From positions 62,001-126,000 of the forward strand of contig NW_026859993.1 of the NCBI RefSeq assembly GCF_026571515.1: a stretch of DNA of 64,000 nucleotides. The letters run 5' to 3'. This stretch comes from Ruditapes philippinarum (taxonomy: Eukaryota). The stretch's first letter is position 1, and each line of letters opens with the position of its first letter. Shown in pieces: positions 43,301-46,300 of this stretch. A program made the position numbers.

Positions 43301-46300
43301 ATTTATCAGATTAGTGGATACAATAAGAATCTCATCACAAAATGTTCGTTAACAAAAAAGCACAATGTCAATGTTTGTGGTTAAATATATTGATAGTCAA
43401 ATAAAAGGGTAGGGATCTTTCAATTATGATCGTAAAACGTTTATTGACATTACGAAACGCATCACATGATGAGATTAAATACGTGCGTTTTTTCTTCTTT
43501 TTTTTTGGCAAATCCTTCTTTAGAAATTAAAGTTATTAAAATGATACCTACGTCAAACATTAATCCGTTAGATATACTTGCTAATCCACACTCAAAATAA
43601 AAATCGTATGACAATGTAAGTCAATAGTGGAATGAACAGATTTGTAATGTGACAAAGTAGGGCGAATGAAATAAATTGAATGAATAAGTAAAATACATTA
43701 AGACAACCAGTTTACAACTTACAAGAGGATTTCTCGATTTCTTTTTCTTTCCCACTCTATATAATTCCTTGTGTCCATTATCTAACATTGTATTGTATAG
43801 GAAAGAAAGAAGAGTAAAAGATTGATAAACGTGTATGTAAAAATCATGTAGAATGATTCTTGTAATTAAACAGTACCAATCGTTGCGGTGTTCCGAATGA
43901 ATGCAAGCGTATAGAAAGCTATTTATATTTCCTCTATTCTTGGGGAAAATATTATTTTTTTTTTGTCCCAGCTCTTTTAAGAAATATTCAATGAAATTAG
44001 CAATCTAACGTTCATAATCGTTGCAATTGATCATGAAATCATTTGTACGGTCATACTGCTCTGGCATGTACAGACGTGTAAGTGCAGGAAATTAGTACTA
44101 GTTGACAGCCTGTCCGGAAATGATGCGATGGTTGAACTGCGCTCGGGTGAATTCAAATTCAAAGAGTCTTACTACCGTGATGGTAAAATGCCAACACCAT
44201 TAACAACAACGCGTTGCCATGCTTACGAGACAGCACATAATTTAAACACTTCCATCTATAATAACACATGTCCATGCTTACAAAAAATTAAATTTAAACA
44301 CTTTTAGTTAGATCATGAATATGTTAAAAATATCCGCTTGAGGAAGAATTTAAAAAAAAAAATATGTTTGAGATACAAATAAAATTTCTTTCTCGTTTAG
44401 CAAAAATGCTTGAGAACTGGACTTTACAGTTGTCTACACAGGCCTTTGCACAGATGTTCGGTTTTGTTGTTGTTGTTGTTTTTTCTTTTTCTTTTTTTCT
44501 TTAATTACGACTTTGCAAGACCCACAAATATGATCACATTCAAAAGTGACATAAATATACTCGTAAAAAGGACAATCCAGTCAACCATATAGCTTATTTT
44601 CTTCCAAGTAATTAGATCGCCTTCGTCTTCTGACTTTTCCAGCTCGTGAATCGTTTCCTTTTCACTGTATCCAGATTTACTCTGCGGTCTAATTTGTTTA
44701 CTTTTCTCTGAACTGATCACAATAACTGGCTCCACCTCAACATTTCCGATTCGGCTTATTTTGCTTATTTTTCTTCGGGTACACGTAAAAAATCTGTACA
44801 TAGACTTGAGCCACGCAGGTACAATAAAGCTGTCGTCCCTACTATACAGGCGCATGTTAAGGATGGTGACACATACTATAAGTGCGCTTATAAACAAGTC
44901 TATAAATAACTTGTAAGATATAAGCGGTACTGGCTTCGAAGTTTGGGGCAACAAGTCATTGACAATGGTCATGTACACAGCAATAGCGAGCAGTGTTGTG
45001 ATACAGTATCCAATACGTTCTCCCGATTCTGGCACCAAGAGAAACACAAGAACATTTAACATGCTTAGAATTGATATTGGCATTATAATGTTTATCACAG
45101 CAAAAGTTGAGTCCCTTTTCAACTTTATAGTGAACGTTATTTCAGACTCATTTCCAGGCGCTACCGTCTTAACGTTAACTTTTGATCCAGTAACATCCCA
45201 TACAGAGTGAGGAGTATATACATCTAAAGAGACGTTGGGCATTCCAGCTAGAAGATTCACTTCATGGCTTTTGTAACCAAGGGAAGTAAAACTCGTGTCG
45301 CAACTCTGAGTGTCAAATGGAAATTTCCTAGCGTTAACACTACACGTGCTTTCAATGAGATCCGCTGGTATCCATTCCATTTGACCATATTGGTCAACAC
45401 GTATTCTGTCTGTTGATTTCCCTATAGTTGACCCTTTTGAAGAAGGACTGGATAACGTCATTTCCGGAACCCATACATCACCGAACGCCACTGTAAGCTG
45501 TTCGATGCCACCATTAACACTTGGGTCCCATTGTAATTTTTCATCTGTCCATACTAGTACCAACGCTGCGACAAAAGAAAACCTTTCATCAACTTCATCA
45601 AATTCTCTAATTGACTTAATTGACATGTATATGTTAACGTTTATTGCCGTGTTTTGGTTCGTTATCGGACGCACATTTTTGTTATAACCAGTGAATAATG
45701 ACGTATGCAGAGTCTCCATTTCCGTTATTGTAGCAGCGTTGATAAGAGCTATTACAAAATGTAATATTATCAAGAACAATAGTGTCCGGAACATAATAGT
45801 GTTTTCTTTGACCTCTATTTTTGCATATATTTAATTCAATAACTAATTTTAAGTTTTAATTTTATCAAGAAACTTTGTGTCCGAAACACAATATATTTCC
45901 CTTTGACCGTCTTTTTGTATCTTTTAAATTCAATAACTAATTTTATGTTTTAATTTCCACTGCCTTTTCAATAAAGAGCTTCGCCTAAACTGAAAAGATT
46001 ATATTAGATCTAGCATTAGTTAAATGGCTAACGGTCGTTTATCTCTGCTATGGTATTGTTTAGAGTTCATTCATCGTTTAATTCTTTGCGTGATTTAAAA
46101 ACGCAATTACTTGTTTCATTTTACTTGGTTAAGGTTCAAACAAGGCTTAAATAATATTTTTGATTTAAATCAAAAGATTTTACTGATCTTTAGCCGCTTA
46201 AAATGTTTAGAAGATTACAAAAGCAGTTGCAAAATCATAATAAAGGAATAAAATATTTCTGATAAGCAATGAAAATATGAGTATATCACAGATTAATTGA

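What the first reader, a model, noticed from the sequence alone, without database searches (positions are those of the whole stretch)
45130..45660. Paralogue divergence is concentrated in the ligand-binding loops while M1-M3 is almost invariant
Between recent copies 1 and 2 I count 16 substitutions in the mature ECD against 1 across M1-M3. Seven fall in the loop F region (PNVSLDVYTPHSV vs PDISFDAYAPHTL) and two in loop C (VKTVAP vs VITVAT), with others in loop D (LVLV/LLLV) and loop E (PAD/PAG). Copies 3 and 5 vary at the same places (AMVLS, LQLH; MPGG; AMLLPSGN, TTLLGSDH). Inference: diversifying selection on ligand specificity, as expected for a sensory repertoire.
Basis: partly seen in the sequence, partly recalled or inferred. 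Interest (0 to 1): 0.7.

Follow-up and report, generated by a model that had tools for sequence, protein, structure and literature searches.

The report
Clam receptor duplicates diverging at binding loops
Two young tandem copies of an orphan acetylcholine-receptor-like channel gene in a clam differ mostly in two loops that line the ligand pocket, a pattern that fits adaptive tuning but is not proven by the few sequences available.

Summary
Copies 1 (44505-45794, -) and 2 (50777-52081, -) are intact, intronless nAChR-like genes. They differ at 16 mature-ECD residues, 1 in M1-M3, 0 in M4, and 11 plus a 3-residue indel in the intracellular loop. Seven differences fall in a 13-residue stretch of loop F (scan p=0.0005).

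The clustering is nonsynonymous only. Codons 181-215 have 10 nonsynonymous and 0 synonymous changes, while M1-M3 keeps 4 synonymous changes. So the M1-M3 invariance between copies 1 and 2 reflects purifying selection, not gene conversion.

Positive selection is suggested but not shown.
- Omega is 1.45 for loops F-C (p=0.35 against 1) and 2.5 for loop F (p=0.06).
- Site and branch-site tests on the four copies are not significant.
- Ten other close family pairs show no such loop F burst.

Copies 3, 4 and 5 are pseudogenes. Copy 3's M2-M3 does carry a conversion-like tract. All canonical ACh-contact residues are absent, so the ligand is unknown and the "sensory" role is untested. This is a new member of a known kind: bivalve nAChR expansions, compared with octopus chemotactile receptors.

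The parts
44505..45794 (-). Copy 1: intact intronless nAChR-like pLGIC subunit gene, 429 aa
   Evidence: Single ORF. Pfam Neur_chan_LBD 5.4e-42 and Neur_chan_memb 1.4e-15. AF2 model pLDDT 87.
45111..45731 (-). Copy 1 mature extracellular domain (aa 22-228); holds 16 of the 29 substitutions against copy 2
45201..45245 (-). Copy 1 loop F (beta8-beta9 loop, aa 184-198): 7 nonsynonymous and 0 synonymous differences against copy 2
   Evidence: Pairwise ML omega 2.47.
45141..45179 (-). Copy 1 loop C hairpin (aa 206-218): K209I and P213T; no vicinal Cys pair
44841..45110 (-). Copy 1 M1-M3 (aa 229-318): 1 nonsynonymous and 4 synonymous differences against copy 2, omega 0.08
44607..44840 (-). Copy 1 M3-M4 intracellular loop (aa 319-396): 11 substitutions plus a 3-codon indel, omega 0.6-0.8
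50777..52081 (-). Copy 2: intact paralogue, 434 aa. Its start codon lies 9 codons upstream of the copy 1 start, and the copy 1-equivalent ATG reads GTG.
41709..46779 (.). Tandem duplication unit holding copy 1. It abuts unit 2 (46830-53183). Adjacent flanks are 8.8-9.2% diverged (JC).
46830..53183 (.). Tandem duplication unit holding copy 2
56561..57878 (-). Copy 3: pseudogene. It has +1 frameshifts near codons 182 and 308, further indels and stops in the intracellular loop and M4. Its M2-M3 part has a conversion-like tract with low synonymous divergence to copies 1 and 2.
58850..59237 (-). Copy 4: degraded M1-M3 fragment of the same family
61121..62372 (-). Copy 5: pseudogene. It has a frameshift in the signal peptide, in-frame stops at codons 224 and 245, a +1 frameshift in the M2-M3 linker, and a 12-nt deletion in loop F.

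Best explanation
The window holds part of a birth-and-death tandem array of intronless nAChR-like pentameric channel subunit genes. The organism is a venerid clam, most likely Ruditapes philippinarum. Copies 1 and 2 are intact duplicates about 0.09-0.10 neutral substitutions per site apart. Since the duplication, the pore and transmembrane core and the beta-sandwich scaffold of the ECD have been held by purifying selection. Loop F, and to a lesser degree loop C, has taken amino-acid replacements on both copies at a rate at or above the neutral rate, and all loop F replacements are conservative. These two loops close the inter-subunit pocket from the complementary and principal sides. I read this as post-duplication adaptive tuning of a probably hydrophobic, non-acetylcholine pocket. 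Shown here: the counts, the nonsynonymous-only clustering, the retained synonymous divergence in M1-M3, the pseudogene state of copies 3-5, and the loss of ACh-contact residues. Inferred: that the excess is adaptive, that it changes ligand specificity, and any sensory role.
For: Codons 181-215 have 10 nonsynonymous and 0 synonymous changes, against 22 and 26 in the rest of the gene. In a two-partition ML fit, omega is 1.45 for loops F-C against 0.27 for the background (heterogeneity p=1.4e-4), and 2.47 for loop F. The six loops have 12 nonsynonymous codons and 0 synonymous changes, against 4 and 10 in the rest of the ECD (Fisher p=2e-4). The local one-sided Fisher test for dN>dS in the six loops gives p=0.029. 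The neutral yardstick agrees from two sources: gene-wide dS is 0.099 and adjacent flanks are 0.088-0.092. All 7 loop F replacements score BLOSUM62 >= 0 where 47-62% is expected (p=0.005-0.036), so the loop is still filtered rather than free. Polarising with copy 3 gives 7 ECD changes derived on copy 1, 6 on copy 2 and 3 ambiguous (read). Several states are rare or absent in 60 relatives: copy 2 A194 0/60 and A192 2/60; copy 1 V198 1/60 and P213 0/60. This argues for new mutations rather than donated tracts. Ten other close pairs in the family show loop F differences of 0-4 out of 15 and loop to non-loop density ratios of 0.7-3.4, against 7 out of 15 and 5.3 here. M1-M3 keeps 4 synonymous differences (dS 0.065 against 0.099 gene-wide, p=0.46).
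Against: No test rejects omega=1 when the synonymous rate is shared across the gene: loops F-C p=0.35, loop F p=0.06, six loops omega 0.86 with p=0.67. On the four copies, M1a against M2a gives LRT 0 for the ECD and 2.6 for the full gene (p=0.27). Branch-site A with copies 1 and 2 as foreground gives omega2=4.1 on 5% of sites, but LRT 1.0 and p=0.31. Loop F-C omega against copies 3 and 5 is 0.6-0.9. I set the windows and loop limits after I had seen where the differences lie. Loops F and C are among the most variable parts of the whole family (entropy 2.4-2.6 bits against 0.6 in M2), which is what relaxed constraint also predicts. Only two intact sequences have DNA available here.
Confidence: 0.5

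Rival explanations
1. Relaxed constraint only. Loops F and C, like the M3-M4 loop, tolerate many residues in any pLGIC. After duplication they drift at about the neutral rate while the rest stays constrained. Nothing adaptive has happened and ligand specificity has not changed.
For: Omega in the loops cannot be told from 1. Site and branch-site tests are not significant. Loops F and C and the intracellular loop have the highest entropy across 62 relatives. The sites where copies 1 and 2 differ are the generally variable ones (mean entropy 2.52 against 1.76 bits, p=9e-4). The intracellular loop behaves alike (omega 0.83). Three of the five copies in the window are already pseudogenes. Passages of PMC9977066 report length-variable loop F and a poorly conserved intracellular loop in 5-HT3 receptors.
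Against: All 7 loop F replacements are conservative (p=0.005-0.036). A loop that accepts only about half of possible replacements should show omega near 0.5, not 2.5. Ten other close pairs of the same family show 0-4 of 15 loop F differences, so loop F is not generally this fast. There are 0 synonymous against 13 nonsynonymous changes in the loops (one-sided p=0.029).
Confidence: 0.35
2. Gene-conversion patchwork. M1-M3 is kept identical by conversion among array members, and the loop differences are tracts donated by other paralogues.
For: Copy 3 against copies 1 and 2 has dS 0.07-0.10 in M2-M3 (aa 255-314), against 0.40-0.43 in the ECD. By NG counts this is 3 of 42.5 against 81 of 236 synonymous sites (p=1.2e-4). 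By third codon positions it is 4/60 against 51/207 (p=0.0018). Copy 5 shows no such drop (22/60 against 76/204, p=1). Conversion therefore does occur in this array. No synonymous difference lies between codons 160 and 257 of copies 1 and 2.
Against: For copies 1 and 2, M1-M3 keeps 4 synonymous differences and its dS does not differ from the rest of the gene (p=0.46). The longest identical run between copies 1 and 2 (136 nt) is not significant (p=0.07). The polymorphic-site run test is not significant for any pair (p>=0.26). A tract donated by a diverged paralogue would carry synonymous changes, and loops F-C have none. Several loop states are absent or nearly absent in 60 relatives. Copy 5 shows M2-M3 conservation with dS 0.85 and omega 0.07, which is purifying selection.
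Confidence: 0.07
3. The selected property is subunit assembly or gating, not ligand choice. Loops F and C lie at the subunit interface, so the changes could alter which partners the two subunits pair with or how binding couples to the pore.
For: The position of loops F and C at the inter-subunit interface is family knowledge. Passages of PMC10338036 describe loop F and loop C moving on ligand binding in the orphan receptor Alpo4. Neither copy has an alpha-type Cys pair, so they may be non-alpha partners in heteromers.
Against: Nothing here separates this from ligand tuning. No interface model was made, and the coordinates of the fold were not available to scripts.
Confidence: 0.15

Closest known systems
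Expanded intronless, tandemly arrayed nAChR genes of bivalves (Jiao et al. 2019, PMC6896357; abstract, sections 9 and 10, and term searches read)
   Same: The host is a bivalve: the best named relatives are from Ruditapes philippinarum, on a contig whose recorded length matches that for copy 1's own entry, followed by Mercenaria, Mactra and Dreissena. The genes are single-exon and sit in a tandem array with pseudogenes. The LBD is diverse and ACh-contact residues are lost. [quoted passage not shown]
   Different: The words 'selection' and 'positive selection' do not occur in that paper. The codon-level contrast between loops and M1-M3 for one young pair, and the conversion tract in copy 3, are worked out here. 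The paper's supplementary alignments were not available.
Cephalopod chemotactile receptors (CRs). Sources seen: passages of the review PMC11526382 and of the preprint 10.1101/2025.10.28.685082. Allard et al. 2023 itself is not held.
   Same: These are nAChR-derived and intronless, with lineage-specific expansion. They lack ACh binding. Site models place positively selected sites in the ligand pocket while the inner pocket and pore stay conserved.
   Different: No chemotactile receptor chain appears among the best 60 of 349 PDB sequence hits or in the listed Foldseek hits. Vertebrate alpha and beta nAChRs rank first. Clade membership, sensory-cell expression and ligands are all untested for the clam genes. 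Selection here is not statistically established.
Alpo4, an orphan lophotrochozoan nAChR-like receptor from Alvinella pompejana (PMC10338036, passages)
   Same: It is an orphan nAChR-like channel from the lophotrochozoan expansion. It lacks the loop C Cys pair, and its loops C and F move around a bulky sterol-like ligand.
   Different: Alpo4 keeps the aromatic cage (F103, W159, Y199, Y205, W65). The clam copies have S115, L172, T210, E216 and A77 at the equivalent positions.
Vertebrate non-alpha nAChR subunits (muscle beta, neuronal beta)
   Same: They share the fold (Foldseek TM 0.72-0.75). The best sequence hits include beta subunits and alpha6 (E about 1e-45). There is no vicinal Cys pair. 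The M2 motif SGER...L...V is present, which I recall as the cation-channel type.
   Different: Identity is about 20-24%. The complementary-face Trp of loop D is also missing (A77). The gene is intronless and has a short 78-residue intracellular loop.

Membership tests
Cys-loop pentameric ligand-gated ion channel, nAChR-like branch | Neur_chan_LBD plus Neur_chan_memb domains | tested here: met
   Pfam PF02931 at 5.4e-42 and 1.6e-41, and PF02932 at 1.4e-15 and 6.6e-17, for copies 1 and 2. All are above the curated cut-offs.
Cys-loop pentameric ligand-gated ion channel, nAChR-like branch | Cys-loop: two Cys separated by 13 residues, with the FPFD core | tested here: met
   C151-C165 with FPFDTQ in both copies. 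C165, P159 and D161 are invariant and C151 nearly invariant across the 62 aligned sequences.
Cys-loop pentameric ligand-gated ion channel, nAChR-like branch | Beta-sandwich ECD followed by four transmembrane helices; fold match to solved nAChRs | tested here: met
   AF2 model pLDDT 87 with helices 229-252, 259-281, 291-317 and 397-428. Foldseek top hits are muscle and alpha7 nAChRs at E about 1e-32 and TM 0.72-0.75.
Acetylcholine-gated nAChR (true ACh receptor subunit) | Aromatic box: loop A Tyr, loop B Trp, loop C Tyr and Tyr, loop D Trp (residue names recalled; positions taken from the alignment to human alpha6) | tested here: not met
   The equivalents are S115, L172, T210, E216 and A77 (alignment). 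Family columns: the loop B position is L in 38, W in 9 and M in 7 of 62; the loop D position has no W in any of 62.
Acetylcholine-gated nAChR (true ACh receptor subunit) | Vicinal Cys-Cys at the tip of loop C (alpha-type subunit) | tested here: not met
   V211-A212 aligns to the CC of alpha6. No CC is present in either copy.
Bivalve expanded intronless nAChR arrays (Jiao 2019) | Intronless coding region, tandem arrangement, bivalve genome | tested here: met
   Uninterrupted ORFs of 429 and 434 aa. Five copies lie on one strand within 18 kb, with abutting duplication units. The closest named relatives are venerid clams.
Cephalopod-type chemotactile receptor (CR) | Membership of the CR or CR-like clade in a phylogeny | tested here: inconclusive
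   No CR chain appears among the best 60 of 349 PDB hits or the listed Foldseek hits. No tree with CR sequences was built because none was available from the tools. The preprint PMC13174522 reports a CR-like clade that includes bivalves.
Cephalopod-type chemotactile receptor (CR) | Expression in sensory epithelium and gating by poorly soluble environmental molecules | not testable with these tools
   No expression or ligand data were available for these genes.
Gene family under diversifying selection at binding sites | Omega significantly above 1 at binding-loop codons | tested here: inconclusive
   Point estimates are 1.45 and 2.47, with p=0.35 and p=0.06 against 1. The local Fisher test gives p=0.029. 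M1a/M2a and branch-site A are not significant.

The most novel reading that the evidence does not exclude
Venerid clams have independently turned a tandem array of nAChR-derived orphan channels into an environment-facing chemoreceptor repertoire. This would be convergent with cephalopod chemotactile receptors. New duplicates would be pushed apart by diversifying selection acting mainly on loop F, the complementary wall of a hydrophobic, non-cholinergic pocket. Meanwhile the pore would be kept constant by purifying selection and occasional gene conversion.
Probability: 0.2. Interest if true: 0.65.

Novelty: new member of a known kind. Interest (0 to 1): 0.4.

Why it matters
Bivalves carry 99-217 nAChR-like genes whose ligands and roles are almost all unknown (PMC6896357). 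If young duplicates in these arrays are driven apart at pocket loops, the arrays would be a receptor repertoire for external or internal chemical cues, not redundant cholinergic subunits. Copies 1 and 2 would then be a compact test pair: 16 ECD differences, 9 of them in loops F and C, on an identical pore. That makes them suitable for mapping specificity by loop swaps. My search for a codon-level selection analysis of bivalve nAChR expansions found no paper, and the word 'selection' does not occur in Jiao 2019. If the pattern is only relaxed constraint, the locus is an ordinary example of birth-and-death evolution.

Tried and rejected
1. The GENECONV-style test (longest run of matching polymorphic sites, 20,000 permutations) was not significant for any pair (p>=0.26). 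The case for conversion in copy 3 therefore rests on synonymous and third-position contrasts. The plain identical-run test (p=0.0002 for copies 1 and 3) is confounded by purifying selection, so I do not use it as evidence.

2. My own implementations of M0, M1a, M2a and branch-site A on four sequences gave no significant omega>1. Power is low, and two of the four sequences are pseudogenes.

3. More codon data could not be obtained. Relatives are available as proteins only.

4. The listing of cluster members for copies 1 and 2 could not be run because the database was off. Whether near-identical alleles or further copies exist stayed unchecked.

5. Allard et al. 2023 (PMC10228259) is not held. 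Its result is cited through the review PMC11526382.

6. Mapping the differences onto 3D contacts was not possible because model coordinates are not exposed to scripts. Loop assignment rests on the model's secondary structure and the alignment to human alpha6. No complex prediction was run.

7. I considered that copies 1 and 2 might be uncollapsed haplotypes. I rejected this because the two units abut head to tail on one contig and their flanks are about 9% diverged with many indels.

8. I considered donation of loop F from another paralogue. I rejected this as the main cause because the tract has no synonymous changes and carries family-unique residues.

The copy 3 column it would have added was read instead.
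Full report
**What is there**

The window is AT-rich eukaryotic DNA with GC about 0.31. Its last 20 kb carries five minus-strand copies of one gene family.
- Copy 1 is at 44505-45794: an intact ORF of 429 aa.
- Copy 2 is at 50777-52081: an intact ORF of 434 aa.
- Copy 3 is at about 56561-57878.
- Copy 4 is a fragment at about 58850-59237.
- Copy 5 is at about 61121-62372.

Copies 1 and 2 match Pfam Neur_chan_LBD and Neur_chan_memb above the curated cut-offs. Their best solved relatives are vertebrate and Torpedo nAChR subunits at E about 1e-45. 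An AlphaFold2 model built on a 62-sequence family alignment (A1) is confident, with pLDDT 87. It shows the usual beta-sandwich plus M1-M4, and Foldseek places it on muscle and alpha7 nAChRs with TM 0.72-0.75.

The closest named proteins are 'acetylcholine receptor subunit ...-like' entries of Ruditapes philippinarum. Next come Mercenaria, Mactra and Dreissena. The source is therefore very probably the Manila clam; this is an inference. The genes have no introns, so no spliced model had to be joined or searched. The contig is not human. The N run at 17492-17631 was left alone.

**The observation**

The protein alignment and codon list show the following for copies 1 and 2:
- 16 differences in the mature ECD (aa 22-228).
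- 1 in M1-M3 (S293T) and none in M4.
- 11 plus a 3-residue indel in the M3-M4 intracellular loop.

Seven ECD differences lie in the beta8-beta9 loop (loop F, aa 184-198 in the model). Two lie in the beta9-beta10 hairpin (loop C). V79L aligns with the loop D position two residues after the complementary-face Trp of human alpha6. Y136F and D145G lie in the loop E strands.

Seven differences in a 13-residue window is not chance (permutation p=0.0005). Two qualifications apply. The intracellular loop is at least as divergent per residue (11/74 against 16/207, p=0.10). The ECD outside the six loops (4/132) is as quiet as M1-M3 (1/90, p=0.65). The strings quoted for copies 3 and 5 are present.

**Copies 3-5 are pseudogenes**

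Copy 3 needs +1 frame corrections near codons 182 and 308, and it has further indels and stops in the intracellular loop and M4.

Copy 5 has several defects:
- a frameshift in the signal peptide;
- in-frame stops at codons 224 and 245;
- a +1 shift in the M2-M3 linker;
- a 12-nt deletion in loop F.

Copy 4 is a decayed M1-M3 piece.

Intact relatives of both lineages exist as database proteins. Copy 3 is 87-88% identical to P0002 and P0003, and copy 5 is 91% identical to P0005. Three dead copies beside two intact ones fits a birth-and-death array. The joined readings of copies 3 and 5 were used only inside local scripts for codon alignment, never in a search.

**Codon-level test for copies 1 and 2**

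Nei-Gojobori counts:

| Region | Synonymous | Nonsynonymous | Omega |
|---|---|---|---|
| Whole gene | 26 | 32 | 0.33 (dS 0.099, dN 0.033) |
| ECD aa 22-180 | 11 | 7 | 0.16 |
| Loops F-C, aa 181-215 | 0 | 10 | dN 0.14, dS 0 |
| M1-M3 | 4 | 1 | 0.08 (dS 0.065) |
| Intracellular loop | 5 | 12 | 0.59 |
| M4 | 4 | 0 | 0 |

The two genes sit in abutting tandem units, 41709-46779 and 46830-53183. The adjacent non-coding flanks differ by 0.088-0.092 (JC; 81/980 and 118/1360 aligned bases). That matches dS, so the neutral distance is about 0.09-0.10.

The clustering is therefore nonsynonymous only. M1-M3 has kept its share of synonymous change (p=0.46 against the rest of the gene). Its invariance between copies 1 and 2 is purifying selection, not homogenisation.

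**Is omega above 1?**

I fitted a pairwise codon-model ML with one synonymous rate for the gene.
- Loops F-C: omega 1.45. This is far above the background of 0.27 (p=1.4e-4) but not different from 1 (p=0.35).
- Loop F alone: omega 2.47 (p=0.06 against 1).
- Intracellular loop: omega 0.83.
- Whole ECD: omega 0.39, no different from the rest of the gene (p=0.64).

I also took six loops together: A 108-117, B 168-176, C 206-218, D 73-81, E 130-148 and F 184-198. Their limits came from the model and the alpha6 alignment, but I set them after I had seen the differences.
- The loops hold 12 replaced codons and 0 synonymous changes. The other 132 ECD codons hold 4 and 10 (Fisher p=2e-4).
- Omega for the six loops is 0.86 (p=0.67 against 1).
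- With local counts only, 13 nonsynonymous changes on 173 sites against 0 on 52 synonymous sites gives one-sided p=0.029.
- None of the 26 synonymous changes of the gene falls in the 75 loop codons (p=0.007). I cannot explain that deficit.

On the four copies, my own M1a/M2a test gives LRT 0 for the ECD and 2.6 for the full gene (p=0.27). Branch-site A with copies 1 and 2 as foreground gives omega2=4.1 on 5% of sites, but LRT 1.0 and p=0.31. M0 against M1a shows strong rate heterogeneity, with about 20% of ECD sites near neutral (p=2e-5). Against copies 3 and 5, loop F-C omega is 0.6-0.9.

In short, the loops evolve much faster than the rest and at about or above the neutral rate. Omega above 1 is not established.

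**What speaks for more than relaxation**

- All seven loop F replacements are conservative (BLOSUM62 >= 0), where 47-62% would be expected from random replacement mutations of those codons (p=0.005-0.036). The loop is still under a chemical filter, which should hold omega well below 1 if nothing else acted.
- With copy 3 as outgroup, 7 ECD changes are derived on copy 1, 6 on copy 2 and 3 are ambiguous (read). Both genes moved.
- Several states are unique or nearly so among 60 relatives: copy 2 A194 0/60, A192 2/60 and T293 0/60; copy 1 V198 1/60 and P213 0/60. That points to new mutations rather than borrowed tracts.
- Among the 10 other close pairs in A1 (up to about 18% amino-acid difference), loop F differences are 3, 1, 1, 4, 1, 0, 0, 1, 1 and 1 out of 15, against 7 out of 15 here. 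The density ratio of loops to non-loop ECD is 0.7-3.4, against 5.3 here. The burst is thus peculiar to this pair and not a standing property of the family.

These are protein-level comparisons, and the relationship within each control pair (allele, paralogue or orthologue) is unknown.

**Gene conversion**

For copies 1 and 2 I find no signal. The longest identical run is 136 nt (p=0.07), and the polymorphic-site run test gives p=0.43.

For copy 3 there is a signal. In M2-M3 (aa 255-314), dS to copies 1 and 2 is 0.07-0.10 against 0.40-0.43 in the ECD (3 of 42.5 against 81 of 236 synonymous sites, p=1.2e-4). Third positions differ at 4/60 against 51/207 (p=0.0018). Copy 5 shows no drop (22/60 against 76/204, p=1), and there M2-M3 has dS 0.85 with omega 0.07.

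So part of the M1-M3 sameness across the array comes from a conversion-like tract. The deeper conservation is purifying selection. The GENECONV-style test itself was not significant (p=0.26).

**What the proteins probably are**

Aligned to human alpha6, every canonical ACh-contact position is non-aromatic. The residue names below are recalled family knowledge.

| Canonical contact | Clam equivalent |
|---|---|
| Loop A Tyr | S115 |
| Loop B Trp | L172 |
| Loop C Tyr, Cys-Cys, Tyr | T210, V211-A212, E216 |
| Loop D Trp | A77 |

Across the 62 aligned sequences the loop B position is L in 38 and W in 9, and the loop D position is never W. The M2 segment is nearly invariant in the family. S257, G258 and E259 are in 62/62, R260 in 61/62, and T266, L268 and V273 in 62/62. 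I recall the SGER motif as the cation-channel type; this is an inference.

These are therefore orphan, probably cation-conducting, non-cholinergic subunits. Nothing in the sequence shows a sensory role.

**Comparison with what is known**

Jiao et al. 2019 (PMC6896357; abstract, sections 9 and 10, and term searches read) describe 99-217 mostly intronless, tandem nAChR genes per bivalve. They report diverse LBDs, frequent loss of ACh-binding residues, highest expression in gills, and responses to stress and infection. The word 'selection' does not occur in that paper.

A clam genome paper (PMC11592408, passages) lists Neur_chan_LBD among the families expanded in R. philippinarum and M. mercenaria.

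For octopus chemotactile receptors, passages of a review (PMC11526382) and of a 2025 preprint report site-model and MEME evidence. Positively selected sites concentrate in the ligand pocket while the inner pocket is conserved.

A 2026 preprint (PMC13174522, passages) reports a 'CR-like' clade that extends to bivalves. Alpo4 (PMC10338036, passages) is a solved orphan of the same expansion in which loops C and F move around a sterol-like ligand.

A full-text search for nAChR, bivalve, positive selection and tandem duplication together found no paper. The LBD alignments of Jiao 2019 might bear on the loss of binding residues.

**Verdict**

- The gene-conversion alternative is rejected for copies 1 and 2 but is real for copy 3.
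- Diversifying selection on loops F and C is the reading I favour slightly (0.5) over plain relaxed constraint (0.35). With two intact sequences it cannot be settled.
- The locus is a new member of a known kind.

**Unchecked**

- DNA of the other family members.
- Alleles and further copies (could not be run).
- Three-dimensional contacts.
- Expression and ligands.

Noticed in passing
window 45762-45956 and 52025-52323: A 94-98-bp unit that includes the first codons of the gene is tandemly repeated 2.1 times upstream of copy 1 and 3.1 times upstream of copy 2. The upstream units are decayed copies of the start region.
   Followed up: partly
window 45792-45821 and 52055-52081: Copies 1 and 2 use different start codons 9 codons apart. 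Copy 2 starts at an upstream ATG (MAVKGNTVV...) and has GTG where copy 1 has its ATG. Copy 1 has ATA at the upstream position. Relatives P0004-P0006 carry the longer N-terminus.
   Followed up: partly
copies 1 and 2, codons 160-257 (window about 45024-45317): There is no synonymous difference over 98 codons that hold 9 replaced codons. None of the gene's 26 synonymous changes lies in the six binding loops (p=0.007). This is unexplained.
   Followed up: partly
window 29270-32376: A 41-bp minisatellite of about 77 copies, 92% matches, GC near 0.5 in an otherwise 0.31 window. It creates long spurious ORFs in several frames.
   Followed up: no
window 10390-11180 (-): Two adjacent ORF pieces match reverse transcriptase RVT_1 (1.4e-15 and 1e-08). 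This is a broken retroelement, probably LINE-like.
   Followed up: partly
window 32621-33129 and 34087-34711; also 24356-24861: Tandem repeats of 165-170 bp with 3-4 copies each. The two arrays just after the minisatellite share a consensus.
   Followed up: no
window 17492-17631: A 140-N gap sits inside an ATG/GAT-rich microsatellite region. It was left unfilled.
   Followed up: no
window 43503-43811, 49771-50097, 55505-55797: About 300 bp downstream of the genes is conserved at 67-69% between the units of copies 1, 2 and 3. The older duplication therefore also included the 3' flank.
   Followed up: no
window 40108-40344: A 237-bp sequence matches its own reverse complement at 86% (palindrome-like inverted repeat) just upstream of the first duplication unit.
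   Followed up: no
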